Shown: positions 10,425-25,105, counted from the first letter of the stretch. The stretch is 64,000 nt of DNA from Lapidilactobacillus wuchangensis (GCF_003946645.1 NZ_RHOU01000002.1:26488-90487), one strand, 5' to 3'. The notes: generated by a model from the sequence alone, not told the origin. Translations and numbers: made by a program.

Positions 10425-10438
10425 CTCACGTACTAGCC

Positions 10439-10468
10439 AGTGTTTCAGTCACTGGTTTTGTGTGTCAA
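10439..10468 (+). terminator. hairpin + U-run (ccagtgtttcagtcactgg ttttgtgtg); may also be an IS200-type subterminal hairpin
   Basis: Perfect 6-bp stem followed by TTTTGTGTG, downstream of the helicase gene and adjacent to the tnpA fossil. A second perfect hairpin gacccttgaaagggtc lies at 10508-10523. Confidence 0.35.
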
Positions 10469-10522
10469 AGCCAAACCACTTAAGCGATGTTTGTACTATT
10501 CATCCTGACCCTTGAAAGGGTC

Positions 10523-10990: not shown

Positions 10991-11316
10991 TAAATCTTAT
11001 AGGTGCATCTTTGGTATAGTCCTGCATAGTGAGTGGCTTTTTGTTTCACACTCATTCGTACATTCAACTTGGCCTAAGGCCATAACAAAACGTTTTGCTA
11101 CGGAAAAATGATTTTAGTAACATTGATGAATTTAAAGAGGAATACTGAGAATAAATTTTTGGTGAGATGTGGAAGATAATATCTATGACTTTTCAATTAA
11201 TGAAGATGTAAAGATTGAAGAAGTAAGTAGTCTTTATGTTATTAATACTTTTATCATTACAATATATTGGTGGAATGAAAAATTCAATGTTTTTAAAAAG
11301 ATGAAGGAGCAAAATT

Positions 11317-13275
11317 ATGTCTAAAATCGAGCCTAAATTATTCGACGAATTAAAAAAAGCACTTATCTCATTTGGGGACAAGTACTTCATTGGCGATGAA
11401 TTAAATCGTTCAAAAGTTTCTGATGATTTACGTGCTTATGATGAAGCTTTACTAGCAAAATTATTTGAAATTGATTTTATCAAAAAGAATTACATTAAAG
11501 AGGTTGCGGGACAAAAACTATTTCAAATTGATCAACTTGAAGAAGCGATTCTTTACGATGATTATTGGGACACAAGTTATACGAAATATGAAAACCGTGT
11601 TGGCTTAACTAGTAATGGCAAGTTTATTGAAGATAACCAGGATGTTGTTTTAGATTTTCCCTTTAAAGATGGTGTCCTAACGGCAAGCATGACCAAAGAA
11701 GATAATGAAAACGGCTATGACGATGCATTCTTAAATGAAGTTATCGAGAAAGATGAAATTGACCGCTTATTTGATAAGAAGATATTAAATAATGTGAAAA
11801 GATATGATGTTGACGGGGAAAAAGATACTGATTATTTTGATACAGAAAAAGACAATTTAATTATTAAAGGAAATAATCTGTTAGCGTTACATTCACTCAA
11901 TGAAATGTATTCGGGTAAGGTTAGATTTATTTATCTTGACCCACCTTATTATTTTGACAAGAGTAAGCCTAGCGATGCTTTTTCATATAATTCAAATTTT
12001 AAATTATCGTCTTGGCTAGTATTTATGAAGAATCGTTTAGAAGTTGCACGTGATTTACTTGATAGTGATGGTGTTATTTTTGTTTCTATTAGTGAAGATG
12101 GGCAAGCCTATTTAAAAATATTGATGGATGATGTATTCGGGAAAAATAATTTTGTCGAAACGTTTATTTGGCGAAATACTGATAATGCTGATTCTCTGGG
12201 GAATAAGAGCCGTTCCGGTTTGGAGTATATCCATGCATATGAAAAAGTTAAGAATTCAAATAGAAAATGGATTGGAAAAGATACAGAGAATGGTGATGCA
12301 CCCTTATTAAACTCTAGTAATGGTGTTAGTCAACTGGAATTTGAACCGGGAATTATACGGTTTAATATACCAGATGGAATTTATAAGGCAGGTAGTTATC
12401 CTAAAATTGAGCTTCTTGATGATTTGATTGTTGAAGATGGTAAAAATAAAAATATTATCAAACTCAAAGGAAAGTTCAAATGGAGTCAATCCTACCTAGA
12501 TGAAGAAGTACGAAAAGGTGGAGATTTTATAATTAAATCGAAGCAGTTCTCTATTCGTTATCAGAAATCTGAAAGCAATTCTATGGCACCTGAGAAAATG
12601 GTTGATACCACCTATCTTTCTAAAATGTTTGGTGTTGGTAGCTATGAAGATTCAAATTCACATTTAGAAAATTTACAAGTAAATTTCACGTACTCCAAAC
12701 CAGAATCTTTAATTGCTTTTCTTATGAGAGCAACTACTGAAGAAGATGATCTCGTCCTAGATTTCTTCATGGGATCTGCCACAACACAAGCTGTTGCAAT
12801 GAAGATGCACCGTCGATTTATTGGTATTGAACAAATGGATTATATTAATACTGTTTCAGTTCCTCGTTTACAAAAAGTCATTGCTGGCGAACAAGGGGGT
12901 ATATCTAAAGATGTTAATTGGCAAGGTGGTGGCTCATTCGTCTATGCTGAATTGATGCAAAAGAATATGGGGTATTTACAAGATATTATCGCCTCTACAA
13001 CAATTGATGAATTACATGAAATCTATAACCGTATGTTATCCGGTGTAGATGGCTCACAAGAATCAGCGGATATTTCTTTTAAAGCAGATTTAGATAAAAT
13101 TGAATGGGATGCAACTAAGGTTAAATTTGATGATCAAAAACGTCTGTTGATTAAGTTACTTGATAAAAATGGGTTGTACTATAATTACTCTGAAATTGAT
13201 GATCAGAATGTTCGAGAATTTTTGTCAGATAGTGATTATCAGTTCAATAAAGATTTCTATGGGACTGGTGAGTAA
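11317..13275 (+). CDS. mod: Type III restriction-modification Mod subunit (beta-class N6-adenine DNA methyltransferase)
   Basis: Motif IV IYLDPPYYFD precedes motif I DFFMGSATTQAVAMKMHRRFIGIE (beta-class order). 652 aa. Translationally coupled to the downstream res gene (stop 13275, ATG 13278). Confidence 0.85.
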   Translation: MSKIEPKLFDELKKALISFGDKYFIGDELNRSKVSDDLRAYDEALLAKLFEIDFIKKNYIKEVAGQKLFQIDQLEEAILYDDYWDTSYTKYENRVGLTSNGKFIEDNQDVVLDFPFKDGVLTASMTKEDNENGYDDAFLNEVIEKDEIDRLFDKKILNNVKRYDVDGEKDTDYFDTEKDNLIIKGNNLLALHSLNEMYSGKVRFIYLDPPYYFDKSKPSDAFSYNSNFKLSSWLVFMKNRLEVARDLLDSDGVIFVSISEDGQAYLKILMDDVFGKNNFVETFIWRNTDNADSLGNKSRSGLEYIHAYEKVKNSNRKWIGKDTENGDAPLLNSSNGVSQLEFEPGIIRFNIPDGIYKAGSYPKIELLDDLIVEDGKNKNIIKLKGKFKWSQSYLDEEVRKGGDFIIKSKQFSIRYQKSESNSMAPEKMVDTTYLSKMFGVGSYEDSNSHLENLQVNFTYSKPESLIAFLMRATTEEDDLVLDFFMGSATTQAVAMKMHRRFIGIEQMDYINTVSVPRLQKVIAGEQGGISKDVNWQGGGSFVYAELMQKNMGYLQDIIASTTIDELHEIYNRMLSGVDGSQESADISFKADLDKIEWDATKVKFDDQKRLLIKLLDKNGLYYNYSEIDDQNVREFLSDSDYQFNKDFYGTGE

Positions 13276-13277
13276 TT

Positions 13278-15986
13278 ATGGCGAAGTCTAAGAATAAAGA
13301 TGTTCAATCATTGAAATTTCCTTTAGTGGAACAGGCTGAACATGCAGAGAAAGATTTATTTCAAGAGAATTGGGCCATTCCTGATTATATTACAAATAAC
13401 TTAGCTCATACTTTTCGACCATATCAAGATAAAGCGCTAAGTAATTATCGTTATACACAAACACAAATCAAGCCTAACCCACAACATGTCTTGTTCAATA
13501 TGGCAACAGGATCTGGGAAAACGGATTTAATGGCAGCTTTAATTTTATATTTGTATCACGATCAAGGTTACACAAATTTCTTATTTACCGTGAATACGAA
13601 CTCGGTTCTGATGAAGACAAAAGATAATCTGATTAATACTGACAGCGATAAGTATCTCTTTCAAGATAAAATTGAGATTGCTGGACAATATATTACGATT
13701 CAAGAGGTCAATCGCTATCCAAGAATCAAACAGGCCAATACAGTTTATCTTAAACTTGCAACTGTTCAAACAGTTTCGAATGATTTATTTACGGTCAAAG
13801 AAAATACGATGGGTTTAACTGATTATGAACAAGATCCAGTCGCAATCTTGGCTGATGAAGCCCATCACTATTCAGCAAGTACGAAGTCGGAAAAAGAAGC
13901 AGAACATACCTGGGAATCAGCGATTAACAAGATTTTGAATGCTAGAAATACTGAAGACCAAAAAAATTTGTTGCTCGAGTTTACAGCAACAGTCGATTTT
14001 GAGAAGACTGCTATCAATGATAAATACCGTGATAAGGTTGTTTATCGTTATCCTTTAAGTCGTTTTATGTATGATGGGTACTCGAAACAAGTTAAGCGGA
14101 TTGAAACGTCAGCTAGTGATGATGAAAAAATGTTAAATGTCGTACTGCTCTCTCAGTTTAGAAAATATCGTGCTCAAATTGAAAATGTCACCAGTACCTT
14201 CAAACCAATTATCATGTTTAAGTCTGCTAAAGTTGCTGTTTCTAAAAAGGCGAATGCTAAATTTAACGAGATTATTGCCAAGCTAACCGCTAAAGATTTA
14301 TTAGCCTTTATTGAACGTCAGCAACTGATGGATAGCAATGATAATGCAGCACTTGAGATTGCTTATAATTATTATTTAAAGAATAAAGATAACTTAGGTA
14401 AAATTGTCCGCGAAATCAAACATGATTTTGACCCTAAAAATGTTTTAAATGCGAATGACGCTAGTGGCAATATGCTTGAAAAAGGTCAGTATGAGGCATT
14501 AAATTCTTTAGAAAGTTCTAATAATTTTTATCGTGTTGTTTTTGCGGTTGCCAAACTCACTGAAGGCTGGGATGTCTTGAACTTATATGATATTGTTCGT
14601 ATCAATGAAGAGGCTGCAACTAATAAAAATGCCACGATGGTAGAGGCTCAATTGATCGGTCGCGGCGCACGCTACTATCCATTTGAGATTAATGGTAAGA
14701 AGAGTTATCAACGCCGGTTTGATCAAGATCCATCTAATAAGCAACTCCTACTAGAGACACTTCATTATCACACAATGAATGAACCACAATACTTAAAACA
14801 GCTAGTTGGATCATTAAAGCAAATGGATTTGCCAACTAGCAAAGATAGTAAAAATCCTCCCATTGAAATTAAAGTTAAATCTGAGTTCAAAAGAACTGAG
14901 GCTTACCGACACGGAAAGATTTACTATAATGAATCAGTTGACGTTCCTAGTAGTTACTTTGACAGCATTCAAAAGTATGGTATTGAGCATAAACCTGATC
15001 TTCAGCGTAATTTAAATTATGGTTCACGGGAAGTTAATTATTCGGCGTATGCAGCAAACGTCGAGACTAAGACAATCAGTGTTTCAAAATTTGATGATCG
15101 TTACATCAAAAAAGCTATTCAAAAGTTAGATTTTTATCAGTTTTCAAATTTGAAAAAATATATTCCTAATATTCAGTCCATGAATGATTTTATTTATGGA
15201 AGTAACTGGTTGAATGCTAATAATCTAAAATTATTTTTAACGGTACCTGTTGAATATCGTGAAGCTAATTTGACCGCAGAAGAAATCTTAAAAGTTATCA
15301 TTGATCTTCTAAAAGAATACCAAGTTAAAATCCAATCAGGTTATGTTAAGCAGCGCGGAACTAATAACTTTATCGGCTATCCAATTAAGGAATATCTCAG
15401 TGATTATAATAAACGTGTCCCTGAGTATGATACACAAACACAATTTGATAAAACGCAAGATATTAAAGTTTATCAAATGAAAGATGATCCATTTTATGTT
15501 TATGATAATGCTATTGTTAATCGACTTGAGTATCAATTAATTGAACGAATTAAGGCATATGTTGAGGATTTAAAAGTTAAGTATGGTAAAGCAGTATACC
15601 TTTTTCGCATGGATGAAACGATGCATCGAGAATCAGCTAAGAGCGAAAAACTGAAGTTACATCAATATCAGGAAAAACCTAAATATGGCATTCATCTGAC
15701 AGGATTTCAACCAGACTTCATTTTATTTCTTGAAGATACAAATGATTATTATTTCCAAATTTTTATTGAGCCTAAGGGCATGAGTGGCGAACGCTTTGAG
15801 AAAGAATTATGGAAAGAAGAGCTTCTGTTATATATGACGGATCATCATGCTGATATGGAATTTATGGACAATGAAAGCGATATTCAGATTAGTGGTTTAA
15901 AATTTTATACTAATGGTGATGGACGTGGCACAATGGAACAATTAAAAGAAATCACAAACATTGCGAATTATACAGACAAACCATGA
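13278..15986 (+). CDS. res: Type III restriction enzyme Res subunit (SF2 helicase + C-terminal PD-(D/E)xK nuclease)
   Basis: Walker A FNMATGSGKTDLMAALILY, DEAH box ILADEAHH, C-terminal nuclease motif GFQPDFILFL ... IFIEPKG. 902 aa. Confidence 0.85.
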   Translation: MAKSKNKDVQSLKFPLVEQAEHAEKDLFQENWAIPDYITNNLAHTFRPYQDKALSNYRYTQTQIKPNPQHVLFNMATGSGKTDLMAALILYLYHDQGYTNFLFTVNTNSVLMKTKDNLINTDSDKYLFQDKIEIAGQYITIQEVNRYPRIKQANTVYLKLATVQTVSNDLFTVKENTMGLTDYEQDPVAILADEAHHYSASTKSEKEAEHTWESAINKILNARNTEDQKNLLLEFTATVDFEKTAINDKYRDKVVYRYPLSRFMYDGYSKQVKRIETSASDDEKMLNVVLLSQFRKYRAQIENVTSTFKPIIMFKSAKVAVSKKANAKFNEIIAKLTAKDLLAFIERQQLMDSNDNAALEIAYNYYLKNKDNLGKIVREIKHDFDPKNVLNANDASGNMLEKGQYEALNSLESSNNFYRVVFAVAKLTEGWDVLNLYDIVRINEEAATNKNATMVEAQLIGRGARYYPFEINGKKSYQRRFDQDPSNKQLLLETLHYHTMNEPQYLKQLVGSLKQMDLPTSKDSKNPPIEIKVKSEFKRTEAYRHGKIYYNESVDVPSSYFDSIQKYGIEHKPDLQRNLNYGSREVNYSAYAANVETKTISVSKFDDRYIKKAIQKLDFYQFSNLKKYIPNIQSMNDFIYGSNWLNANNLKLFLTVPVEYREANLTAEEILKVIIDLLKEYQVKIQSGYVKQRGTNNFIGYPIKEYLSDYNKRVPEYDTQTQFDKTQDIKVYQMKDDPFYVYDNAIVNRLEYQLIERIKAYVEDLKVKYGKAVYLFRMDETMHRESAKSEKLKLHQYQEKPKYGIHLTGFQPDFILFLEDTNDYYFQIFIEPKGMSGERFEKELWKEELLLYMTDHHADMEFMDNESDIQISGLKFYTNGDGRGTMEQLKEITNIANYTDKP

Positions 15987-16005
15987 CTACCCGTAAAATG
16001 AGTAG

Positions 16006-16024
16006 TTTGCTCTAGAACTATAGG
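16006..16024. repeat. direct repeat copy 2 (tttGctctagaactataGg)
   Basis: See 10406-10424. Lies 20 nt after the res stop codon. Confidence 0.6.
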
Positions 16025-16417
16025 ACCTATGTACAAGTCAGCGTCTATAATCACCTCCAAGCTCTTGGTAGAATTATCCTATCATCAGTTTGGAGGTTTT
16101 ACATATGAGAGAAATTATTAAATTGAACCTTGATAATCTTAGAAAATCAACTCGTTTAGATAACACAGTCTGCTTCCTGCGAACAGAACATTGAACGATT
16201 AAAATTTTTAATGGGATTAAGCCACACCTATTTGAATCACTACTGAAGGTGGTTTCGGGTCATGGCGAGTAAATTGCTCGATGTTGAAGCGGTTTATTTG
16301 ATTTGTGGTCGACAACTAGGCAAGTAATGTTTTATTCCTAGTAGCTAGTTATGATGAACGCGGTAGCTTTTATAATATGAGGCGTGATGCTTGAATTAAT
16401 TCAAAGAGCGAACGTAG

Positions 16418-16446
16418 GTTCTCTTTTGGTCTATATATGGTATAAT
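16418..16446 (+). promoter_or_regulatory. candidate sigma-A promoter with extended -10 (TGgTATAAT) for the cyclase operon
   Basis: tggtataat at 16438-16446, ~38 nt upstream of the ATG at 16484. The -35 element is weak (ttctct). Confidence 0.35.
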
Positions 16447-16483
16447 GGCTTTATTAAAATACTATATATAGGCAGGCGTGTGT

Positions 16484-17584
16484 ATGAAAGATACATCTTA
16501 TGTTTTACAGAAAATCTGTAGCCAAATTTCACTATCTGATACGGCGAAAGCTAATGTTGTTCGGGAATATACCTCACTTGGAAAGTTAATTTCCAACAGT
16601 GATTTAATCGGCTGTAGAACTGAAATAAAACCTCAAGGATCATATAATCTTGGAACAGCTATAATGCCCTTAAATGGTTCCGATGATGATTTTGATATTG
16701 ACTTGGTAGCTATTTTGGATGAGATGCCAACTGCTCAGAAAACTAAAATTGTTATCGGTGATGTATTAAAAGCAAGTGATTTGTATTCATCCAAACTATT
16801 GCCTGAGAAAAAACGTGCTTGGACAATTGACTATGCCAAGTCACACGTGGATGTTGTTCCGGCAGTTAAAAATGATGTGGCAGATATCTCGGTGACAAAT
16901 AAAAATAGCAAAGATAATTATGATTATCATCCAAGTAGTCCATTTAAATTCAAGGAATGGTTTATTGAAAAGGGACAAGATATTTATCAAGGGTCTACTA
17001 CTGTCAAAAACCATATTCGTAATGAAGTGGAACAGCCTGAGGAATATGATCAATCTACAATTTTACAACAGGTTGTGCAGTTGTTGAAATTTCATCGAAA
17101 TAAGATGTTTGAGAATCGACCTGATAAGGAAAAGCCAATCTCAATGGTAATTACCATTTTAGCAGCTCAGTCCTATAACGGTCAGAACGATCTTTCAACT
17201 GCTTTGGTAGAAGTAACTAATAGATTACGCGATCAAATTGAATATGATGTACAAGGAGTTCCACACATCCTCAATCCGACAAATCCGAAAGAAGATTTTA
17301 CTGATAAATGGAAAGAGCATCCCGAACGGAAGACAGCTTTTTTTGAATGGCTTCAAGTTGTTGAACGAGAATTGGGAACCACAAACAAGACAAATATTAT
17401 TTCATGGCAAGAGACACTTTCAAAAGTCTATGGTGAGAAACGCACACGAAACGCGTTTAATGATTTAGGCAAATGGCGATCAGATATTCAAAGACGCGGA
17501 GAAATACCTGTTAATGATGCTGGAATATTTGAAGATGAACATAGTGACAATTATGTGACACCAAATACCTTTTGGGGGGATTAA
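16484..17584 (+). CDS. SMODS-type / cGAS-DncV-like nucleotidyltransferase (CD-NTase), CBASS-type cyclase
   Basis: N-terminal pol-beta NTase signature QGSYNLGTAI ... GSDDDFDIDLV (G[SG]x9-13DxD) plus a third acidic block SHVDVVPAV. ~367 aa, typical CD-NTase length. The ATG at 16484 is preferred over the tracked GTG at 16478. Confidence 0.75.
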   Translation: MKDTSYVLQKICSQISLSDTAKANVVREYTSLGKLISNSDLIGCRTEIKPQGSYNLGTAIMPLNGSDDDFDIDLVAILDEMPTAQKTKIVIGDVLKASDLYSSKLLPEKKRAWTIDYAKSHVDVVPAVKNDVADISVTNKNSKDNYDYHPSSPFKFKEWFIEKGQDIYQGSTTVKNHIRNEVEQPEEYDQSTILQQVVQLLKFHRNKMFENRPDKEKPISMVITILAAQSYNGQNDLSTALVEVTNRLRDQIEYDVQGVPHILNPTNPKEDFTDKWKEHPERKTAFFEWLQVVERELGTTNKTNIISWQETLSKVYGEKRTRNAFNDLGKWRSDIQRRGEIPVNDAGIFEDEHSDNYVTPNTFWGD

Positions 17585-17585
17585 A

Positions 17586-18005
17586 TTGTCTAATGTTTGT
17601 AGACTTAAGTATTATTATCAATTAAATTTGTTATTTCCTAATCCCCATAATTCAATAACTGCAAATGGCTATTTTCATGTTTATGGAAATATACAGGCTA
17701 ATTCACTCGGAAAAAAGTACAAGATTGAATTTCGATCTTGTAAAAAAAATATTCAGGTTATCATTCACAACTTTTTTATTCCGGGGTCGTTATATGATAT
17801 ACCGCATATCTTTGTAAATCAATCTAGTAAAGAAAAAAAAGAAATTTTCTTGTGTTTATATAGAAACAAGCATAATCGAAAAGAATTTATCTTCGGTGAT
17901 AATTTAAAAGAGACATTAATTCCTTGGACAAAAGAATGGTTGTATTTTTATGAATTATTTTTAGTTACTGGAAAATGGTATGGGAACGGTGAACATCCTG
18001 AGTAA
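17586..18005 (+). CDS. hypothetical 139-aa basic/aromatic-rich protein, middle gene of cyclase operon (TTG start, no internal Met)
   Basis: Starts 2 nt after the cyclase stop with a GGGGGGA SD 6 nt upstream of TTG. A 139-codon open frame in ~30% GC DNA is unlikely by chance. Overlaps the next gene by 26 nt. No TM segment and no recognisable motif. Confidence 0.45.
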   Translation: MSNVCRLKYYYQLNLLFPNPHNSITANGYFHVYGNIQANSLGKKYKIEFRSCKKNIQVIIHNFFIPGSLYDIPHIFVNQSSKEKKEIFLCLYRNKHNRKEFIFGDNLKETLIPWTKEWLYFYELFLVTGKWYGNGEHPE

Positions 18006-18867
18006 AAAAATAAGAGTGGTTCATGAAAAAAGGTTTATATGTAAAAATATTCTTCTACCTATAATTTTACCTCTTGTCCTATGTGAGGTTATTACAAATT
18101 ATTTTCCAAGAAAAAAGGTTTTATCTGTCATGCAAGCGATATTTAACATTAGTGAAAGCAGAAGATTGCTGCTCGAGAGTTTCATGTTTGTGTACCCTAT
18201 TTTTATTTTTTGCATTTTTTTCTTCTTATATCGCAAATTTATTTCAAAAATTTTCTGGAAGCGAAATCTTTTACCTGAGAATCAATATTTTTTGGTGTCA
18301 GTGTGGTCATTAAAGATTGCGACTTTTATTAGTGGGTTAGATCAGGGAAGTGCCACTAGTCTTCCAATATGGCAATATATTGATTACCTGTATAATAAAG
18401 AATCATTTGGTTGGAGATACTTAACACTAAAGACTCCTGATGTAACACAATCTCCCAAAGGGACAGAAATTAAACAAGTTTTCTACCAAAAAAATGATGA
18501 TAAAAATATGAGTCCAGTTCGATCAATAATAGTGGCAGACACATACCCAATTGACATGGACTTGCTACCTGAATTTGTTACTAATCATGACTACGTTCTT
18601 TTTCAACGCCTGGTTAATAATCAAACGGATAGAGTGCGTGGTTACAATCAAGATTTGGTGTTGGATATTATTAGACAAATTAGAAAAGCTGAAACAGATG
18701 GCGTTCAGGATATTTATTTACTTTTAAATACTAGTCCTACTCACGTGACGGAAATTATGCGAGAATCTTTTCAGGATGCTGGACGGAACTCCATAAAGCA
18801 TCTGTATGTGTATGAGTCGCAATCAGAATCTCCATTTAGATTTGTCAAACCACATCGTATTTATTAA
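17980..18867 (+). CDS. 2-TM membrane protein with soluble C-terminal domain, putative CBASS membrane effector (SLATT / S-2TM-like)
   Basis: Two N-terminal hydrophobic helices (ILLPIILPLVLCEVITNYF; FMFVYPIFIFCIFFFLY) then a ~180-aa alpha/beta-looking domain (SIIVADTYPIDMDLL ... DIYLLLNTS). Overlapping gene arrangement with the cyclase operon. Confidence 0.55.
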   Translation: MGTVNILSKKIRVVHEKRFICKNILLPIILPLVLCEVITNYFPRKKVLSVMQAIFNISESRRLLLESFMFVYPIFIFCIFFFLYRKFISKIFWKRNLLPENQYFLVSVWSLKIATFISGLDQGSATSLPIWQYIDYLYNKESFGWRYLTLKTPDVTQSPKGTEIKQVFYQKNDDKNMSPVRSIIVADTYPIDMDLLPEFVTNHDYVLFQRLVNNQTDRVRGYNQDLVLDIIRQIRKAETDGVQDIYLLLNTSPTHVTEIMRESFQDAGRNSIKHLYVYESQSESPFRFVKPHRIY

Positions 18868-19563
18868 GATGATTTTCAATTATAAAATATATGTAATTAA
18901 GATATCGTGATCGTTGTAATAGTGTTGGTTACCGTTATTTTGTAACTTAACAAAATAACGTTCGCATTTCAGTGATAACGCAGTAGTACGCTACTATAAC
19001 TGGAAATTAATCAAAGTTATTGAACTTCAAGTAATTATAATGTTATCGAAAATGTATTCTGACTTGTGATCTTATACGCTTTTTCGGAATAAATATGTTA
19101 TAATAAACTTACTTAGTATGAGAGTTGAACAGCACAACTCGTTTATGATATCAAAGTTACCATAAGAAATACTAAACGAGGCTATAACACATCCTTTCTA
19201 AGATGTCTACCTCTAATTGCTTAATCACCTTGACCACAATAGTAATTATGATCTCAGTGATATTAGCGCTGAAGGAAAAGTCACTCGATTGCACCACTAG
19301 GATTATCACAATCACTAGTATGTAACGAATACGCTTATCCATTCTATTATAACTTTACGTAAAGTATGCGATTATACTTTACCGGTCAGCAGAGTATTTT
19401 ATCGGGCTATGGTAATTTACAAGAATTTCCGGAGCGCCAGCTGTAATTTGGTAGCATTTAGACGTCACTTTGTATGATTCTGACCGTCAGTTTGAATAAG
19501 TGAACGATTTCCGGAGGGTCTGCGGGTTACCGCAGGCCCTTTTAGTATCTTTAGGAGGATTTT
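18868..19563 (+). ncRNA. ORF-free structured leader upstream of RT, candidate RT-associated ncRNA/template
   Basis: 696 bp with no ORF >=60 aa in any frame. Perfect 11-bp hairpin ccgttattttgt-aactta-acaaaataacg (18935-18962). 10-nt direct repeats atttccggag at 19425-19434 and 19507-19516. GC-rich hairpin gggtctgcgg-gtta-ccgcaggccc (19517-19540) followed by cttttag and the RBS AGGAGG. Confidence 0.3.
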
Positions 19564-21117
19564 ATGAACGGCGAAGTTGATCGATTACTTGAAAAATCTA
19601 ATAAAGTACTTGGTAAAACATACAAACATTTTGATGTTAATCCAAGTAAGTCTTCTGCTAAGAAGTTTATTGCCAATACAGTACTTAAACCTAACGTTAT
19701 TGCACGTTATCGATTCTACCCGTTTATTATCTATTCACAGGTGACAATAAAATATCATCGGACTAAGGGACATCTCAGAGCACATGTACGTGATAAAGTA
19801 CGCCCTTTATCTTTAGTTGCCCATCATGACGCATTGATTTATGTAAAATATGCGGATGAATTAAATTCGTCATATGAAGAATATCTGGTTGAGCATAATT
19901 TTTCCAATGTACCAACGGCGTATAGAAAATCCAGGCATACTTCTAATATTAATGCAGCGAAAGAAGTATTTGATTTTATTGTTGCCCAGAATGATTGCTG
20001 GATCATAAAGGGTGATTTTAAAGGCTTCTTTGATAATCTAAGACACCGAATTTTAAAAGAAAATCTACGCCGAGTTATGTCTGTAGCCCACTTAACGCCA
20101 GATTGGTTGGCTGTTTTTAAGTCAGTGACAAGGTATAACTGGGTTATGAGCGCAGAACTAAATAAGTCATTGAAAAAAGCAAATCTGGTTGATAGAAAAT
20201 GGCCTGCCTATCTAAAAGAGCGCAAAGACTTCGCCAAATTGATAGCGGATGGTAATTTAAATGTTAACGGATTTAATCAAATAGGCATTCCACAAGGAAC
20301 ACCTATTAGCGCTGCACTTGCAAATGTTTATATGATTGAATTTGATGAGAAACTTAATAAAATTGCTCTTGAAAAGGGAGGATTGTACCGTCGATATTCA
20401 GATGATTTTGTTATTGTTATTCCGAAGAAAAATTTAGATGAGGAAGACCTGAATATATTTTTGAAGGGAGTTATAGATCTTAGCCAGCTTTTTACTTCTT
20501 TAGAGATTGAGCGGCATAAAACTAAAATATTTAGTTTTGGTAACTCTGATGGTACTAATGTAATTTTACAAGAAGATAAAAGCAAGAACTTTATTCCTGC
20601 TTGGTTAGATTATTTAGGCTTTATCTTTAATGGTTCTGAAGTTAAAATGCGAGAACGCGGCGTATATAAGTTCCATTATAAAAGCAAAAAGGCAATTAAT
20701 AAGTTTTTAAGAATTAGGAATGATAGAAATCAAATTCTATCAAGGAAGGTTCCAACGCCAGATAGAAAACAACGTCTGGTATGGCAAAACGGAAAGCAAA
20801 AACGAATCGAACTAAACCAATATGATAAACGGCTTGCTTATAAAAAAAGGATTGAAAGGGAAGAGAAAAGAATTAAAGCTAATGCGCCTAATTCAAAGAT
20901 GGTTGCAAAGATGTACACTGTTGGCAAAAGATATGGCGAACGATACTCGATGATTGGATATGCCAAAAGAGCGCAGACAATATTTTCCAACAATAAAGGA
21001 CGATACAAAGTTAGTGTTCTGAATCAAATTAATGATCAGATTAAGAATAATCAGTTTCAAATTAATAGAATTAGAGACAAAGGTGCATATGCCGCACATA
21101 AAAGAGTTAATGAATAG
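19564..21117 (+). CDS. reverse transcriptase, Abi/UG (defence-associated) or retron-like; 517 aa with ~140-aa N-terminal and ~170-aa basic C-terminal extensions
   Basis: RT motifs IKGDFKGFFDNLRHRIL (motifs 1/2), GIPQGTPISAALANVYM (motif 4), YRRYSDDFVIV (motif 5, YxDD), LEIERHKTKIF (motif 6), LGFIFNG (motif 7). No maturase (X) domain recognised. Confidence 0.8.
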   Translation: MNGEVDRLLEKSNKVLGKTYKHFDVNPSKSSAKKFIANTVLKPNVIARYRFYPFIIYSQVTIKYHRTKGHLRAHVRDKVRPLSLVAHHDALIYVKYADELNSSYEEYLVEHNFSNVPTAYRKSRHTSNINAAKEVFDFIVAQNDCWIIKGDFKGFFDNLRHRILKENLRRVMSVAHLTPDWLAVFKSVTRYNWVMSAELNKSLKKANLVDRKWPAYLKERKDFAKLIADGNLNVNGFNQIGIPQGTPISAALANVYMIEFDEKLNKIALEKGGLYRRYSDDFVIVIPKKNLDEEDLNIFLKGVIDLSQLFTSLEIERHKTKIFSFGNSDGTNVILQEDKSKNFIPAWLDYLGFIFNGSEVKMRERGVYKFHYKSKKAINKFLRIRNDRNQILSRKVPTPDRKQRLVWQNGKQKRIELNQYDKRLAYKKRIEREEKRIKANAPNSKMVAKMYTVGKRYGERYSMIGYAKRAQTIFSNNKGRYKVSVLNQINDQIKNNQFQINRIRDKGAYAAHKRVNE

Positions 21118-21164
21118 CTTCATATAATTAACTTTCACATATATCTGAATTAAAGCACTTTACT

Positions 21165-21212
21165 TTATGACAAAGGCCATACAATCTTTAAAGATTGTAT
21201 GGCCTTTGTTTG
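21165..21212. terminator. bidirectional rho-independent terminator
   Basis: Perfect inverted repeat aaaggccatacaatcttt/aaagattgtatggccttt, followed by gtttgagcatttttt. Confidence 0.75.
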
Positions 21213-21283
21213 AGCATTTTTTGATACGAGAATTAATTTATCTGACTTATATTTAGTCTTTAATTAATCTGAACGTATTCAAT

Positions 21284-21763
21284 CTACTTCCCCCGTTTGA
21301 TTTCTAAATACTTACTCCGTGCAGTCTGAAAATCTTGTTTCATTGTTGGATAAGCTTTTTTAATATCGTGGGCGCTGATGAAGAAGAAAATAATGGCGAT
21401 AATTTCCAGTGGCAAGAAGAATAATCCGACGTAGCTAAAGTAGGTGTCGCCACTGCCACCTGCAGACAAATCTTTAAACAGAATTGGTATCAGGATGATT
21501 GAAATAATATTGGCAATGTAAATTAAAATTGGTGCGACATACTTTCTTTTCGAAATTTTGGTTAACTTGCTGGCACCGACGTGGGCCACGACTGTGAAAA
21601 TGAAAAGCAAGAGGCCGAGACTGCTATTCGTATTTAGTCCCAGCATTGCGAGGCCCATCAGCACGATTGTCGCGATCGGTACTCCTAAGTAATAACTGTA
21701 TGTTTGATATGGTCGACCATTATCCTTAAATTCTTGTTTAGCTGTTTTTAAATCTTCGTTCAT
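21284..21763 (-). CDS. hypothetical integral membrane protein (~4 TM), 159 aa from MNEDL start
   Basis: AGGGGGA RBS before the ATG at 21763. Hydrophobic segments throughout. Confidence 0.6.
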   Translation of the reverse strand: MNEDLKTAKQEFKDNGRPYQTYSYYLGVPIATIVLMGLAMLGLNTNSSLGLLLFIFTVVAHVGASKLTKISKRKYVAPILIYIANIISIILIPILFKDLSAGGSGDTYFSYVGLFFLPLEIIAIIFFFISAHDIKKAYPTMKQDFQTARSKYLEIKRGK

Positions 21764-22309
21764 GATACTTCCCCCTAAATATTGGTTTGTCCCCCAAGTT
21801 TTGCTATCATGTGTCATCAGTGTAATTGCTTTTGATCTCCCTAAGATAAAAAGCTACTAAAAACACATTTTTCAACACTATTAGAACTTATATTAATATA
21901 ACACTATCTGCTCCTTAAAATTGCTTGTTTTCTTAAATATGGCAGCATTTTGCGAAAAATTCATAAGCAGGATGCCAAATTAGTCGGGCTTTTATGATCA
22001 ATCACCAGCCAGATATTAACTTGATTATTTAAGCACATTGTTTCAATCGGATTGTCTGTTCCATGTTTAATGTTGAAAATTTTCAGCACTCACAGTCCAA
22101 CCTGAATCCTGTCTAGACACCCGCCACCAAAGGCTTTCGCGATGGCAGATTGTTTGAACTTTCAAATTTCTTATGTTAGTGTTTAGCCATTAATGGGATT
22201 AATTTAGGGTTTGGAAGTTGCCGGCAGAATGATTGAGTGATCAATGATTTGCTGGGCTTTCAAAGATAAGTCGGTGGTTTTTAAGCGCCGACTTTCGGGA
22301 GTGAAAATA

Positions 22310-25105
22310 ATGACAGATTCAAAGATGACGACGGATCAGTTTGCCAAGTTGCCTCTTGATCAGTTTTATCAGACGCTGACGACCAGCGAGACTGGTTTGA
22401 CTGATGACGTGGCGGCGCAGCGGCTGAAAGTGGTCGGTGCCAATACGATTCAGCAGGCTCACAAGCAGTCGCAATTCAAAGTGTTCATTAAGAACTTCAT
22501 TAGTTTGATGGCGATTTTGTTGTGGGTCAGTGGCGTGATTGCGATGATCGCCGGGATGCCGGAATTGGGGATCGCGATTTGGGCGGTCAACGTGATCAAC
22601 GGTTGCTTCAGTTATTGGCAAGAACATGCTGCTCAGAAAGCCACCGACTCACTGAAAAAAATGCTGCCAAACTATACCCAAGTTTTGCGTAATGGTACGG
22701 CCAAGCAAATTGATTCGACTGAACTTGTTCCAGGCGATGTGTTCCTAATTCAGGCCGGCAATAGTATTTCGGCTGATGCGCGGATTGTCACCGGCAATGC
22801 GTTACAGGTCGACGAGTCAGCACTAACCGGTGAGTCAGTCGTGGTTGATAAGTTACCTAATTATGATAAAGGAGACGGCCAATTTTCTGAACAAAATGTG
22901 GTTTACGCCGGCACGATGGCAGTCAATGGTACCGCGACCGCCGTGGCGATTAACACCGGAATGCAGTCGGAGTTTGGCCAGATTGCCGCTTTGACTGAAC
23001 ATCAGAAAACGAACGTGACGCCGTTGACCGCCGAATTAAATCGGTTGACCCGACAAATTTCTCTGATTGCAATCATCATCGGTTTACTGTTCTTCTTTGC
23101 GGCCATTTTCTTCGTTCATTACCCAGTGGCCAAGTCTTTTGTTTTCGGCCTGGGCTTAATTGTCGCCTTCATTCCTGAAGGCTTGCTACCGACGGTGACC
23201 TTGTCGTTGGCTCAAGGCGTGACACGGATGTCCAAGAAGCATGCGCTGGTCAAGGAGTTGAGCAGTGTCGAGACGTTGGGCGAAACCACTGTAATTTGCT
23301 CCGATAAAACTGGGACGTTAACTCAAAATCAAATGACCATCAATCACGTTTGGCTGCCAGGACAGGAGTATACCGTCAGTGGCGAAGGTTACGTCAACAA
23401 TGGTCAGATCCAGAAAAATAATCAGCCGGTGGTTTTAGCGAACGTGCCGGATTTGTCGTTGCTAATTCGTGTTGCCGCGCTGAATAATGATACTGATATT
23501 CAGAGTGAAGATTCACCAAGACCGAAAATTGTCGGCACGCCAACTGAGGCGGCCCATTTAGTTTTGGCGCAGAAATCAGGCTTGGATTTAAAGCAGTTGC
23601 AGCAAGACTATCCGCGAATCCAAGAATTGCCTTTTGATTCTAGTCGGAAACGGATGACCACGATTCACACGCAGCCTAATCAGGCCGAGCCAGTAATTTA
23701 TGTGAAGGGCGCCTTAGTTGGTATTTTGGCTCAGAGCGACCGTCTGCTGGAGAATGGTCAAGTCCGGCCCATTACTGACGCCGATAAAAAGACGATTTTG
23801 GCGGCTAACGAAGGTTATGCTACCCAAGGTTTGCGCTCAATGGCGATTGCTTATCGTGACTTGGATGGGCAAAATGGCCTGCCAAGTAAAGCTGCTGATT
23901 GCACGATTGATAATACTGAGCAACATTTGATTTTTGTTGGCTTGACGATTATGGCAGATCCACCGCGGCCAGAGATTTATGATGCCATCGATAAATGTCA
24001 TCGCGCCAATATTCGCGTGATTATGGTGACTGGTGATAGTCCACTGACTGCTAAAAGTGTCGCCGTGAAAATCGGGATTGATAGTGAAAATGTTCGGGTG
24101 ATCACCGGCGATGAATTGAGTCAAATGAGTGACCACGAGTTACAAAAAGCCGTGCGTGGTGAAGTGATTTTTGCGCGGGTGGCGCCAGATCAGAAGTATC
24201 GCATTGTGAAGGCCAATCAGCACAACGGCGAAATTGTTGCTTCAACGGGTGATGGTGTTAATGACGCGCCAGCCTTGAAGCAAGCCGATATTGGTATTGC
24301 CATGGGCTTGACCGGGACGGACGTAGCCAAAGATGCGGCCGACATTATTTTGACCGACGATAATTTTGCCTCGATTGTGGCGGCAATTGAAGAAGGACGA
24401 ACGGTTTACAGTAACATTCAGAAATTCCTGCTCTATATTTTGAATAGTAATGTACCTGAGGCGATTCCGTCGATTCTGTTTCTTTTCTCCCGGGGGCTGA
24501 TTCCTTTGCCGTTAACTGTGATGCAGATTTTGACGATTGATTTAGGCACCGATATGTTGCCAGCCCTAGGGTTAGGCGCTGAGAAAAGTGAGCCGGGCAT
24601 CATGGACCAGCCACCTCGTGATCGGGATGCGCATTTACTGAATAAGTCGGTGGTCTGGAAGGCGTTTGCTTGGTATGGCCTGCTGGAGTCGATTGTTTCT
24701 GTGGCGGCCTATTTCTTCATCAATAGTCGTTATGGTTGGCCGCAGACGGCGCTGGCTGCCAGTGGCAATGTTTATATGTTGGCGACGACGATGACGCTGG
24801 CCTCGATTGTCTTTTGCCAGATTGCCATGGCCAATAATTGTCGGACGCAAGTGACTTCAGTCTTTAAAATTGGCCTGTTCAGCAATCATCGAATTTGGTT
24901 CGGGATCGCTGCAGAAATCCTAATTGTGGCCTTGCTGATGTATGTGCCGTTCTTACAAAGCGTGTTCAACACCACTGGTCTAGCGCTCTCTGACTGGGCT
25001 TTACTCTTCTGTATTCCAATTCCATTGTTCCTGCTTGAAGAAGGGCGCAAAGCGATTGTGCGCTGGCGGATGAAGCGTCAGCAACAACCAGTCAGTTTAA
25101 AATAA
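22310..25105 (+). CDS. P-type cation-transporting ATPase (Ca2+/Mg2+-type, P2/P3 subfamily)
   Basis: ICSDKTGTLTQNQM phosphorylation motif, MVTGDSPLTA, GDGVNDAPALKQADIGIAMG, 8-10 TM segments. GGGAG RBS before ATG at 22310 (MTDSK); the tracked start at 22244 is too far upstream. Confidence 0.9.
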   Translation: MTDSKMTTDQFAKLPLDQFYQTLTTSETGLTDDVAAQRLKVVGANTIQQAHKQSQFKVFIKNFISLMAILLWVSGVIAMIAGMPELGIAIWAVNVINGCFSYWQEHAAQKATDSLKKMLPNYTQVLRNGTAKQIDSTELVPGDVFLIQAGNSISADARIVTGNALQVDESALTGESVVVDKLPNYDKGDGQFSEQNVVYAGTMAVNGTATAVAINTGMQSEFGQIAALTEHQKTNVTPLTAELNRLTRQISLIAIIIGLLFFFAAIFFVHYPVAKSFVFGLGLIVAFIPEGLLPTVTLSLAQGVTRMSKKHALVKELSSVETLGETTVICSDKTGTLTQNQMTINHVWLPGQEYTVSGEGYVNNGQIQKNNQPVVLANVPDLSLLIRVAALNNDTDIQSEDSPRPKIVGTPTEAAHLVLAQKSGLDLKQLQQDYPRIQELPFDSSRKRMTTIHTQPNQAEPVIYVKGALVGILAQSDRLLENGQVRPITDADKKTILAANEGYATQGLRSMAIAYRDLDGQNGLPSKAADCTIDNTEQHLIFVGLTIMADPPRPEIYDAIDKCHRANIRVIMVTGDSPLTAKSVAVKIGIDSENVRVITGDELSQMSDHELQKAVRGEVIFARVAPDQKYRIVKANQHNGEIVASTGDGVNDAPALKQADIGIAMGLTGTDVAKDAADIILTDDNFASIVAAIEEGRTVYSNIQKFLLYILNSNVPEAIPSILFLFSRGLIPLPLTVMQILTIDLGTDMLPALGLGAEKSEPGIMDQPPRDRDAHLLNKSVVWKAFAWYGLLESIVSVAAYFFINSRYGWPQTALAASGNVYMLATTMTLASIVFCQIAMANNCRTQVTSVFKIGLFSNHRIWFGIAAEILIVALLMYVPFLQSVFNTTGLALSDWALLFCIPIPLFLLEEGRKAIVRWRMKRQQQPVSLK

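What the first reader, a model, noticed from the sequence alone, without database searches (positions are those of the whole stretch)
18868..21117. Defence-type reverse transcriptase preceded by a 696-bp ORF-free structured leader (candidate RT-templating ncRNA), with no adjacent effector gene
The 517-aa protein carries RT motifs 1-7 including YSDD. It lacks a maturase domain and is flanked by extra N- and C-terminal regions, as in Abi/UG (DRT) RTs. Upstream is an unusually long non-coding stretch with a perfect 11-bp hairpin (18935-18962), a 10-nt direct repeat atttccggag (19425/19507) and a GC-rich hairpin abutting the RBS (19517-19540). Retrons and several DRT systems (e.g. DRT2, DRT9) use exactly such an upstream ncRNA as template and primer. 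The RT stands alone between the CBASS-like operon and a terminator, so either the RT itself or its cDNA product would be the effector.
Basis: partly seen in the sequence, partly recalled or inferred. Interest (0 to 1): 0.8.

Follow-up and report, generated by a model that had tools for sequence, protein, structure and literature searches.

The report
DRT2 reverse transcriptase with neo-template RNA
This is a Lactobacillus-family copy of the known DRT2 anti-phage system: a lone reverse transcriptase and an upstream structured RNA that it probably copies round and round into repetitive DNA, creating a toxic gene that exists nowhere in the genome.

Summary
The 517-aa reverse transcriptase (RT; 19564-21117) is a DRT2 (UG2) enzyme. 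PADLOC Drt2 scores E 1e-115, the solved K. pneumoniae DRT2 structure 9c0i is the best sequence and fold match, and there is no other domain or partner gene. Only the last ~433 nt of the 696-nt leader (~19111-19543) is conserved and structured. It has an extended -10 promoter, a 5' three-helix handle, a template, a pseudoknotted 3' scaffold with strong covariation, and a terminator hairpin.

I predict the template is 19183-19347. It is flanked by the direct repeat TATAAC, 165 nt apart (55 codons). Joined head to tail and read antisense, it has one stop-free frame. The junction completes a promoter, TAGACA-17-(TG)TATAAT; the single genomic copy reads TATAGC. No dinucleotide shuffle of 1000 matched this. 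The same logic holds in 12 of 14 close homologues (0-3 of 14 at shifted anchors) and 42 of 78 family loci (1-4 in controls).

Its 11-bp hairpin lies outside the RNA.

This is a new member of a known kind. It has clade-specific twists: a longer RT, RNA and repeat, and a junction inside the -10. Everything mechanistic is inferred, and the start codon for the predicted protein (Neo) is unclear.

The parts
19096..19104 (+). Probable promoter of the ncRNA: extended -10, TGTTATAAT. The transcription start is inferred near 19111.
   Evidence: The TGnTAnAAT motif is conserved at the same distance from helix P1 in 8 of 10 close homologues (alignment A4). Conservation with the closest locus, L001, begins at about 19085. 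No transcript data exist.
19111..19543 (+). DRT2-type ncRNA of about 433 nt. Both ends are inferred: the 5' end from the promoter and the 3' end from the terminator U-tract.
   Evidence: Minimum free energy is -113.6 kcal/mol, z = -3.83, and 0 of 100 shuffles fold as well. The RNA is conserved upstream of homologous RTs. It has no Rfam family.
19113..19175 (+). 5' handle, a three-helix junction. P1 pairs 19113-19119 with 19169-19175. P2 pairs 19122-19127 with 19135-19140. P3 pairs 19143-19147 with 19161-19165.
   Evidence: The three helices are 86-96% paired across 10 sequences. 13 of their 18 pairs show compensatory changes. With partners slid by 1-3 columns, pairing over the whole tested 5' structure falls to 35-46%.
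19183..19188 (+). [quoted passage not shown] It is the counterpart of ACA-1 in K. pneumoniae DRT2.
   Evidence: It is exactly 165 nt from copy 2. The homologous positions carry GTAAC, ATAAC, TATAA, TGTAA or TTATAA repeats in close homologues.
19183..19347 (+). Predicted template of 165 nt (55 codons). Its cDNA, joined head to tail, would be the repeat unit of the neo gene, which is read on the minus strand.
   Evidence: It is the top candidate in a scan that did not require length divisible by 3 or an open frame. One antisense frame has 0 stops, while the other five frames have 2-10. 0 of 1000 dinucleotide shuffles reach its score. The predicted repeat peptide is RMDKRIRYILVIVIILVVQSSDFSFSANITEIIITIVVKVIKQLEVDILERMCYN.
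19348..19353 (+). Jump repeat copy 2 (TATAAC), immediately 3' of the template. It is the proposed re-annealing site for the cDNA 3' end and the counterpart of ACA-2.
   Evidence: It lies 4 nt before position 1 of the 3'-scaffold covariance model in the window, and within 25 nt of it in the other hits that have a clear repeat unit.
19175..19354 (-). Longest antisense stop-free stretch of the leader (180 nt). The listed 56-aa ORF 19172..19342 is its single-copy form. The open frame ends 7-8 nt beyond the unit on each side.
19204..19209 (-). -35 element (TAGACA) of the junction promoter.
   Evidence: It is a perfect TTGACA at the homologous position in L001, L081, L086 and L091.
19183..19189 (-). 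TGTTATA: the TG of an extended -10 plus the first four bases of the -10 hexamer. In the genome it continues as ...GC, giving TATAGC, which lacks the final T of the hexamer.
   Evidence: Genomic versus junction sequence. The spacer to the -35 element is 17 nt.
19346..19347 (-). AT: the last two bases of the -10 hexamer. The template jump would place them after TGTTATA, giving TGTTATA|AT.
   Evidence: One search shows the junction string ...GGATGTGTTATA|ATAGAATGG.... In long-form RT loci the junction falls after base 3-5 of the -10 hexamer.
19359..19382 (+). Hairpin H1, directly 3' of the template (GTAAAGTAT paired with ATACTTTAC).
   Evidence: Helix 1: 83% of cells paired, and 3 of 6 pairs show compensatory changes.
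19383..19486 (+). Pseudoknot. CGGTCAG (19383-19389) pairs with CTGACCG (19480-19486), which lies in the loop of hairpin 19475-19477/19487-19489.
   Evidence: Helix 2: 7 pairs, 100% paired in 8 sequences, 4 pairs with compensatory changes.
19429..19514 (+). Scaffold domain closed by helix CCGGA (19429-19433) with TCCGG (19510-19514). Inner helices pair 19434-19439 with 19449-19455, and 19463-19470 with 19498-19506.
   Evidence: Helices 3-5: 92-100% paired with compensatory changes. The closing helix covaries in L086 (UUGGA/UCCAA) and L091 (CUGGA/UCCAG).
19516..19543 (+). Terminator-type hairpin (GGGTCTGCGG, loop GTTA, CCGCAGGCCC) plus UUUU. It probably defines the ncRNA 3' end, and RT mRNA would need read-through.
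   Evidence: The terminator scan finds it. Helix 8 has 10 pairs, 100% paired, 7 of them with compensatory changes. The T-run is conserved in all 10 aligned loci.
19553..19558 (+). Ribosome-binding site (AGGAGG) of the RT gene.
   Evidence: Read from the sequence.
19564..21117 (+). DRT2 (UG2) reverse transcriptase, 517 aa, with YSDD at aa 278-281. It is a long form: about 90 aa longer at the C-terminus than the solved 425-aa enzyme.
   Evidence: PADLOC Drt2 E 1.1e-115. NCBIfam Drt2 312.8 bits, below its cutoff of 390. PDB 9c0i E 2.6e-46 over aa 19-395. The AlphaFold2 model has pLDDT 88.6 and matches 9c0i_A with Foldseek E 2e-27 and TM 0.83; the next hit has E 1e-10.
21171..21208 (.). Perfect palindromic terminator between the RT gene and the convergent 177-aa ORF (21284-21817, minus strand).
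   Evidence: Read from the sequence.

Best explanation
This is a two-part DRT2 anti-phage module: a ~433-nt structured ncRNA (about 19111-19543) followed by its RT (19564-21117).

Shown here:
- The RT belongs to the DRT2 family by sequence and predicted fold.
- The RNA has a conserved, covarying 5' handle and a pseudoknotted 3' scaffold that bracket a variable central region.
- That central region carries, on the antisense strand, everything a permuted gene needs.

Inferred by analogy with K. pneumoniae DRT2 (PMC11100668, PMC12039810):
1. The RT binds the handle and scaffold. It primes from the ncRNA 3' end, which here would be set by the terminator hairpin and U-tract.
2. It copies the template from 19347 down to 19183.
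3. The cDNA 3' end (GTTATA) then re-anneals to the second TATAAC (19348-19353), and the template is copied again. This yields head-to-tail 165-nt repeats.
4. After phage infection the concatemer becomes double-stranded.
5. Each junction then completes an extended -10 promoter: TAGACA, 17 nt, TG-n-TATA|AT. The single genomic copy reads TATAGC.
6. The resulting mRNA carries an endless frame encoding a 55-aa, Ile/Val/Leu-rich repeat protein (Neo). Neo arrests the infected cell.
For: RT identity:
- PADLOC Drt2 scores 385 bits, against 86 bits for the next family.
- PDB 9c0i is the best match by sequence and by fold.
- Pfam finds only RVT_1.

Stand-alone module:
- Flanking genes differ in every homologous locus. 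A 370-700-nt upstream gap recurs.

ncRNA structure:
- 3' scaffold: 46 pairs, 95.1% paired against 29-49% with slid partners. 26 pairs have compensatory changes against 2-6. The pseudoknot is 100% paired.
- 5' domain: 85% paired against 35-46% slid.
- The covariance model hits the window once, at 19352-19545. It also matches immediately upstream of the RT gene in 14 close loci, 6 of them not used to build it.

Neo logic in the window:
- TATAAC occurs twice, 165 nt apart.
- One antisense frame is stop-free.
- The junction promoter scores 11 of 12 plus the TG.
- 0 of 1000 shuffles match this.

Neo logic in the family:
- When only the junction promoter is scored, repeat length is divisible by 3 in 51 of 78 loci, and the frame is endless in 42 of 78. 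Controls give 22-27 and 1-4.
- Proteobacterial loci recover the published ACA repeat and a 120-nt unit. This serves as a positive control.
- Anchored on the covariance-model start, 12 of 14 close loci have an endless frame, against 0-3 of 14 at shifted anchors.
- Each unit has exactly one stop-free antisense frame; the other two carry 2-11 stops each.
- Predicted Neo peptides share the promoter-encoded motif EVDIL.KMCYN and hydrophobic stretches.
Against: - There is no experimental data for this locus or its clade: no transcript, cDNA, junction or phenotype.
- The window's expression signals are weaker than the clade consensus. The -35 is TAGACA rather than TTGACA. The conserved GGAGG-N8-TTG start context reads AGAGG-N8-TTA. 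The in-frame ATGs (19342, 19192) lack a well-spaced Shine-Dalgarno sequence, so the Neo start codon is unresolved.
- I found no counterpart of the Kpn SL2 stem that would bring the two repeat copies together. The GAGG/CCUC helix is only 60% paired.
- The RT scores below NCBIfam's Drt2 equivalog cutoff.
- Three close loci (L085, L089, L003) give no clear unit.
- The codon-position bias in Neo comparisons (position 3 > 1 > 2) comes from protein-guided alignments, so it is weak evidence.
- A terminator sits between the only plausible promoter and the RT gene.
Confidence: 0.8

Rival explanations
1. The locus is a DRT2 relic. The RT and scaffold are intact, but Neo expression signals have decayed, so concatemers may form without producing a working toxin.
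For: Within 16 nt the window differs from the clade consensus GGAGGTTGACATCTTG at three functional positions (AGAGGTAGACATCTTA). These affect the Shine-Dalgarno sequence, the -35 element and the TTG start. No canonical Shine-Dalgarno/start pair remains.
Against: The 165-nt frame is still fully open, while the other frames have 2-10 stops. The repeat spacing is still a multiple of 3. The -10 with TG is perfect after the jump, and such promoters depend little on the -35 element. A new in-frame ATG lies 3 nt after the -10. The RT has all its invariant residues.
Confidence: 0.1
2. The RT uses the ncRNA to make a different, non-coding DNA product. This could be a homopolymer as in DRT9 or short tandem repeats as in DRT10. 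On this view the antisense frame and promoter are incidental.
For: Tang et al. say Neo annotation was 'more challenging' in divergent DRT2 clades and raise alternative mechanisms. The RT is a long form below the NCBIfam Drt2 cutoff. It has weak similarity to Drt9 and UG17 profiles.
Against: Drt2 scores 385 bits, against 64 for Drt9 and 71 for UG17. The fold match to DRT2 has E 2e-27, against 1e-10 for DRT9. The enrichment of lengths divisible by 3, endless frames and junction promoters is strong and specific to strand and position. No SLATT or other partner gene is present.
Confidence: 0.06
3. The 56-aa hydrophobic antisense ORF (19172..19342) is an ordinary small toxin gene of the type I toxin-antitoxin kind, controlled by the overlapping sense RNA. 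The RT would be unrelated to it.
For: The ORF encodes a short, very hydrophobic peptide and is fully overlapped by an antisense structured RNA. Gene callers annotate the equivalent ORF as a 48-aa gene in L081 and L082.
Against: In genomic context its promoter is poor: TATAAT has no TG and a 2-of-6 match at -35. This model does not explain several findings. Direct repeats sit at exact multiples of 3. The frame stays open upstream of any ATG right up to the repeat. A consensus promoter appears only across the junction. The RNA is always linked to a DRT2 RT. Several homologues have no in-frame ATG near the 5' end of the frame, and L086 has none at all.
Confidence: 0.03
4. The RT belongs to a group II intron or a retron.
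For: NCBI annotates the protein as 'reverse transcriptase/maturase family'. There are weak hits to group II and retron RT models.
Against: No maturase or intron RNA domain was found. No Rfam group II intron or retron msr hit appears within 18000-22300, even at E<=1. The group II model scores 86 bits against a cutoff of 300, and the retron models score well below theirs. DRT2 is the best hit by a wide margin.
Confidence: 0.01

Closest known systems
K. pneumoniae DRT2 (UG2), with RT-ncRNA structure PDB 9c0i; Tang et al. 2024 (PMC11100668); Wilkinson et al. 2024 (PMC12039810)
   Same: - A single RT gene with no effector.
- An upstream ncRNA arranged as 5' handle, template, then pseudoknotted 3' scaffold.
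- A template flanked by a short direct repeat.
- A repeat unit divisible by 3.
- An antisense endless ORF.
- A sigma-70 promoter formed only across the repeat junction.
- A hydrophobic repeat protein whose conserved residues are promoter-encoded (EVD..L...YN in both).
   Different: - The RT is 517 aa rather than 425, with an extra C-terminal beta-hairpin and helices.
- The ncRNA is ~433 nt rather than 281.
- The unit is 165 nt rather than 120.
- The jump repeat is TATAAC (6 nt) rather than ACA.
- The junction falls inside the -10 hexamer rather than 5-6 nt after the -35.
- The 3' end looks like a canonical intrinsic terminator.
- The scaffold sequence is not detectable across clades.
- I found no SL2-like stem.
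- None of this has been tested experimentally.
Short-form Firmicute DRT2 loci, such as Lactobacillus intestinalis in Tang et al. Table S1
   Same: Same phylum and same Neo logic. A Neo prediction has already been published for that locus.
   Different: Its RT is about 442 aa, and the junction lies in the promoter spacer. The window belongs to the 495-525-aa Lactobacillaceae clade. I could not find that clade in the stored, truncated part of the table.
DRT9 and DRT10 (class 2 UG RTs with ncRNA)
   Same: An RT plus a cis-encoded ncRNA template, with DNA synthesis used as the defence output.
   Different: These systems are protein-primed and make poly-A or short telomere-like repeats. DRT10 also has a SLATT effector. 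The window RT scores far lower against them, and its template carries a gene-like antisense frame.
Telomerase and rolling-circle amplification (conceptual parallels)
   Same: Repeat addition by re-aligning the product 3' end on a short duplicated template sequence. Wilkinson et al. draw this parallel themselves.
   Different: The unit is 165 nt and codes for protein. The template is a linear RNA. There is no homology.

Membership tests
DRT2 (UG2) defence system | The RT belongs to the UG2/Drt2 sequence family. | tested here: met
   PADLOC Drt2 PDLC03757 scores E 1.1e-115 over aa 13-508. phmmer against PDB 9c0i gives E 2.6e-46. Caveat: the NCBIfam equivalog NF041746 scores 312.8 bits, below its cutoff of 390, although it is by far the best hit.
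DRT2 (UG2) defence system | The RT fold matches the solved DRT2 RT. | tested here: met
   The AlphaFold2 model has pLDDT 88.6. Foldseek against the PDB ranks 9c0i_A first, with E 2e-27 and TM 0.83 normalised to the target. The next hit, DRT9, has E 1e-10.
DRT2 (UG2) defence system | A single-protein system: no fused effector domain and no conserved partner gene. | tested here: met
   Pfam finds RVT_1 only. Neighbouring genes differ in all homologous loci.
DRT2 (UG2) defence system | A structured ncRNA upstream on the same strand, with a 5' handle and a pseudoknotted 3' scaffold. | tested here: met
   Covariation counts. The covariance model hits only directly upstream of RT genes. Folding z-score is -3.8.
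DRT2 (UG2) defence system | A template bounded by a short direct repeat that allows the template jump (ACA-1/ACA-2 in the K. pneumoniae system). | tested here: met
   TATAAC occurs at 19183 and 19348, with homologous repeats in close loci. The motif is not ACA, and the jump itself is not shown.
DRT2 (UG2) defence system | A repeat unit divisible by 3, with one stop-free antisense frame across the junction. | tested here: met
   The unit is 165 nt. One antisense frame has 0 stops and the other frames have 2-10. 12 of 14 close loci show this, against 0-3 of 14 at shifted anchors.
DRT2 (UG2) defence system | A sigma-70 promoter reconstituted only at the repeat junction. | tested here: met
   The junction gives TAGACA-17-TGTTATA|AT, while the genome reads TATAGC. 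0 of 1000 shuffles match. This is an in-silico result only.
DRT2 (UG2) defence system | [quoted passage not shown] | tested here: inconclusive
   The clade consensus is GGAGG-N8-TTG. The window has AGAGG-N8-TTA. Its in-frame ATGs at 19342 and 19192 lack a well-spaced Shine-Dalgarno sequence.
DRT2 (UG2) defence system | Concatemeric cDNA synthesis, phage-triggered second strand, Neo toxicity and phage defence. | not testable with these tools
   This needs expression, long-read DNA sequencing and phage assays.
Group II intron RT/maturase | A maturase (X/GIIM) domain and an intron RNA with domains I-VI around the ORF. | tested here: not met
   There is no GIIM hit. TIGR04416 scores 86 bits against a cutoff of 300. 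No Rfam intron hit appears at E<=1.
Retron | A retron-clade RT with an msr/msd RNA and an effector gene. | tested here: not met
   Retron RT profiles reach only E 1e-11 or weaker. There is no Rfam msr hit and no conserved partner gene.
DRT9 / DRT10 (UG28 / UG17) | An RT of those UG families. DRT10 also has a SLATT effector and a short-repeat template. | tested here: not met
   Drt9 scores 64.5 bits and UG17 70.9 bits, against 385.5 for Drt2. No SLATT gene is present.
Type I toxin-antitoxin | A small toxin ORF with its own promoter, ribosome-binding site and start, repressed by an antisense RNA and independent of an RT. | tested here: not met
   The genomic promoter and ribosome-binding site are weak. 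In homologues the frame is open without a consistent ATG. The RNA is strictly linked to a DRT2 RT.

The most novel reading that the evidence does not exclude
The long-form Lactobacillaceae DRT2 clade (RTs of 495-525 aa) may run a distinct version of the neo mechanism.
- The 5-6-nt sequence that aligns the cDNA for the template jump is itself the first part of the -10 hexamer (TTAYA|AT). A correct jump would therefore be the very event that creates the promoter.
- A canonical intrinsic terminator sets the ncRNA 3' end that serves as primer, and it also throttles RT expression.
- The repeat is 147-180 nt. It encodes a protein with two hydrophobic segments per unit, rich in beta-branched residues.

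This would settle the 'more challenging' Neo annotation that Tang et al. reported for divergent clades.
Probability: 0.5. Interest if true: 0.45.

Novelty: new member of a known kind. Interest (0 to 1): 0.35.

Why it matters
DRT2 is the only known system in which a gene absent from the genome is assembled by reverse transcription. All experiments so far use the K. pneumoniae system and a few relatives, all assayed in E. coli.

- This locus shows the same permuted-gene logic in a Gram-positive lactic acid bacterium. NCBI labels the RT only 'RT/maturase family', because it falls below the Drt2 equivalog cutoff.
- It gives exact, testable coordinates: the template, the jump repeat, the junction sequence and the RNA ends.
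- It shows that where the jump falls relative to the promoter differs between clades. That constrains models of how the RT chooses where to jump.
- In practice, such loci hide an unannotated toxic gene inside an 'intergenic' region of food and probiotic bacteria. They add to the phage-resistance repertoire of Lactobacillaceae.

Tried and rejected
1. I rejected it because all antisense and sense frames have stops and 82 is not divisible by 3. The copies are strands of a covarying helix.
2. The whole 696-nt leader as one RNA. I rejected it because 18868-19110 is not conserved and folds no better than shuffles.
3. Rfam, at E<=1 over 18000-22300: only a chance miRNA hit.
4. E. coli genomes: no similar DNA.
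5. The covariance model R1 of the 3' scaffold does not reach RT relatives below about 45% identity. I therefore could not align scaffolds across clades or to the K. pneumoniae RNA.
6. A stem joining the two template ends, like SL2. Single-sequence folds of 11 units show no consistent closing helix, and GAGG/CCUC is only 60% paired.
7. Codon-position analysis of Neo is suggestive, but the protein-guided alignment biases it.
8. A 2026 preprint that mentions DRT2 ncRNAs (10.64898/2026.09.22.753630) was not retrievable.
9. L085, L089 and L003 gave no convincing repeat unit.
Full report
**What is at the coordinates**

The ORF at 19564..21117 (+) encodes 517 aa. YSDD lies at aa 278-281 and is invariant across 30 homologues. 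Pfam finds only RVT_1.

The gene sits 696 nt after the stop of a CBASS 2TM effector (17980-18867). A perfect palindromic terminator (21171-21208) and a convergent 177-aa ORF with no family match follow it.

The protein is identical to an entry annotated 'reverse transcriptase/maturase family protein' from Lapidilactobacillus wuchangensis. Its nearest relatives, at 57% identity or less, are all from Lactobacillaceae.

- **The perfect 11-bp hairpin.** It exists, but at 18933-18960. It is unlikely by chance: 2 of 500 dinucleotide shuffles reach 11 bp.
- **The 10-nt direct repeat.** It is at 19425 and 19507 as stated, but it is not unusual as a repeat: 88 of 500 shuffles have one of 10 nt or more.
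- **The GC-rich hairpin.** It is real (19516-19539, followed by TTTT) and scores as an intrinsic terminator.

The leader is not strictly ORF-free. It contains a 56-aa antisense ORF at 19172..19342.

**Which RT it is**

- PADLOC's Drt2 profile matches aa 13-508 at E 1.1e-115 (385 bits). The next family, UG39, gets 86 bits, and Drt9 gets 64.
- The best solved relative by sequence is the K. pneumoniae DRT2 RT (9c0i), with E 2.6e-46 over aa 19-395.
- An AlphaFold2 model (pLDDT 88.6) matches 9c0i_A first, at E 2e-27 and TM 0.83. DRT9 and group II intron RTs follow at E 1e-10 or weaker.
- NCBIfam's Drt2 equivalog is by far the best model but scores 312.8 bits, below its 390-bit cutoff. This explains the generic public annotation.
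- Beyond the region alignable to 9c0i (aa 396 onward), the protein continues with a beta-hairpin and four helices, and it is about 90 aa longer overall.
- Group II intron and retron models fall far below their thresholds. Rfam finds no intron or msr RNA.

**What is known about DRT2**

These points come from the papers, not from this work.

- In K. pneumoniae DRT2, a 281-nt ncRNA upstream of the RT has a 5' handle, a ~120-nt template and a pseudoknotted 3' scaffold.
- The RT extends the ncRNA's own 3' end. It copies the template and jumps back using the flanking ACA-1 and ACA-2 repeats, producing concatemeric cDNA.
- After infection the DNA becomes double-stranded. A sigma-70 promoter forms across each junction.
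- The antisense mRNA encodes a stop-less repeat protein, Neo, which arrests growth (PMC11100668; PMC12039810).
- Tang et al. note that Neo annotation was 'more challenging' in divergent DRT2 clades.

**Extent and structure of the RNA**

I collected 80 homologous genome loci and 10 more for the closest proteins. Most have a gene-free gap of 370-700 nt upstream of the RT, and their flanking genes are all different.

The window's leader is conserved with the closest locus only from about 19085 onward. An extended -10 (TGTTATAAT, 19096-19104) is conserved at a fixed distance from the first helix in 8 of 10 close loci.

The stretch 19111-19546 folds much better than shuffles (z = -3.83), whereas 18868-19110 does not (z = -1.11).

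*The 5' domain.* Three helices form a junction at 19113-19175. They are 86-96% paired, and 13 of 18 pairs show compensatory changes.

*The 3' domain (19352-19545; 46 pairs in 8 sequences):*
- 95.1% of cells are paired, against 29-49% when partners are slid by 1-3 columns.
- 26 pairs have changes on both sides, against 2-6 in the slid controls.
- The pseudoknot (19383-19389 with 19480-19486) is 100% paired, with 4 covarying pairs.
- The terminator hairpin has 7 covarying pairs.

In L086 it becomes UUGGA/UCCAA, and in L091 CUGGA/UCCAG. Complementarity is kept, while the resemblance as a direct repeat is lost.

A covariance model of this domain hits the window once. It also hits 14 close loci, always directly upstream of the RT gene, and 6 of these were not used to build it. 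It does not reach more distant RT relatives.

**The hidden gene**

The longest antisense stop-free stretch in the leader is 19175-19354, at 180 nt. Within it, TATAAC occurs at 19183-19188 and again at 19348-19353, exactly 165 nt (55 codons) apart.

When 19183-19347 is joined head to tail and read antisense:
- One frame is endless, and the other five frames carry 2-10 stops.
- The junction reads ...TAGACATCTTAGAAAGGATGTGTTATA|ATAGAATGG....
- That is a -35 (TAGACA), a 17-nt spacer and TG-n-TATAAT.
- In the genome the same -35 and spacer end in TATAGC, which lacks the final T of the hexamer.
- None of 1000 dinucleotide shuffles of the RNA region gave an endless unit with as good a junction promoter.

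**Comparative tests of the hidden gene**

1. **Unbiased scan.** For 78 RT-upstream regions I scored only the junction promoter for every pair of direct repeats (3 nt or longer) 90-260 nt apart, with no frame requirement.
   - The top candidate had a length divisible by 3 in 51 of 78 loci and an endless antisense frame in 42 of 78.
   - The sense strand gave 22 and 4. Shuffles gave 27 and 1.
   - The window's top candidate was the 165-nt unit.
   - Proteobacterial loci returned ACA repeats with 99-120-nt units, as published.
2. **Anchored scan.** When the 3' repeat was required to lie at the start of the covariance-model hit, 12 of 14 close loci gave an endless unit, against 0-3 of 14 at ten shifted anchors. 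For 11 of these loci I fixed a unit of 147-180 nt by combining this scan with alignment to the window.
3. **Predicted peptides.** They share EVDIL.KMCYN(K/R), which is encoded by the -35, spacer and -10. Otherwise they are Ile/Val/Leu-rich. Published Neo sequences look the same (EVDKL...LYNV).

**A clade-specific difference**

In loci with long RTs (495-525 aa, Lactobacillaceae, including the window), the junction falls after base 3-5 of the -10 hexamer, and the jump repeat is the -10 itself (TTAYAA). In loci with short RTs (about 390-475 aa, including the ACA type), it falls in the spacer, 1-18 nt upstream of the -10.

Other differences from the K. pneumoniae system are a longer RNA (~433 against 281 nt), a longer unit (165 against 120 nt) and a canonical terminator at the RNA's 3' end.

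**Weak points**

- All mechanistic steps are inferred by homology. Nothing has been tested in this clade.
- The window departs from the clade consensus GGAGGTTGACATCTTG at three positions (AGAGGTAGACATCTTA). This weakens the Shine-Dalgarno sequence and the -35, and it removes the in-frame TTG. The in-frame ATGs at 19342 and 19192 have no well-spaced Shine-Dalgarno sequence. The Neo start is therefore unresolved, and the copy could be attenuated.
- I found no stem that brings the two repeat copies together.
- The terminator lies between the only plausible promoter and the RT gene, so RT expression would need read-through. This fits the single transcription start site reported for the K. pneumoniae system.

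**Verdict**

This is a DRT2 system whose effector is probably a Neo protein encoded by concatenated cDNA of 19183-19347.

It is a new member of a known kind, with modest clade-level variations. Interest is moderate to low for a specialist. The coordinates and predictions given here are directly testable.

Noticed in passing
window 18933-18960: A perfect 11-bp AT-rich hairpin with a 6-nt loop lies 66 nt after the CBASS effector stop. It is outside the conserved ncRNA and has no good T-tract after it. It is unlikely by chance (2 of 500 shuffles) and may be the CBASS operon terminator. Its function is unknown.
   Followed up: partly
window 7864-21117: The region forms a defence island. It contains a UvrD-like helicase (7864-10233; the best PADLOC hits are the DRT-associated helicase 'RTasHel' and GajB, E ~1e-54). 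Next come type III restriction-modification Mod and Res genes (11317-15986). Then comes a CBASS operon of cyclase, E2-like protein and SUa-2TM effector (16478-18867). Last is the DRT2 module. The island is flanked by an LPXTG/SpaA-repeat surface protein (3136-7029, minus strand) and a P-type ATPase (22244-25105).
   Followed up: partly
window 21284-21817 (-): A 177-aa ORF convergent with the RT gene has no hit in Pfam, PADLOC or NCBIfam. It is not conserved next to homologous RTs.
   Followed up: partly
L081 1097-1243 (-) and L082 305-451 (-): Public gene calls annotate the single-copy antisense neo frame of a related locus as a 48-aa hypothetical gene. Permuted neo units are therefore already entering protein databases as orphan small ORFs.
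   Followed up: no
L032 (Limosilactobacillus reuteri PB-W1) 2923-3261: The RT reading frame is cut to 112 aa, so it is probably a pseudogene. A 168-nt endless antisense unit with a TTGAAA-17-TATAAT junction is still predicted upstream.
   Followed up: no
L086 1272-1291: One close homologue, on a 41.6-kb Lactiplantibacillus plantarum record, has an extra ~20-nt hairpin (TAGACAGGATTTTCCTGTG) inserted between the second jump repeat and hairpin H1. The spacing between template end and scaffold is therefore not fixed.
   Followed up: no
window 19366-19373 (-): A second antisense TATAAT lies within hairpin H1 (the reverse complement of 19368-19373), about 20 nt upstream of the genomic TATAAT at 19346-19351. 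I found no matching -35, so it is probably chance in AT-rich sequence.
   Followed up: no
window 10234-11316 and 15987-16477: Two gaps of about 1.1 kb and 0.5 kb, inside the defence island, contain only ORFs shorter than 70 aa. No tRNA gene is present in 1-30000. I did not examine them further.
   Followed up: no
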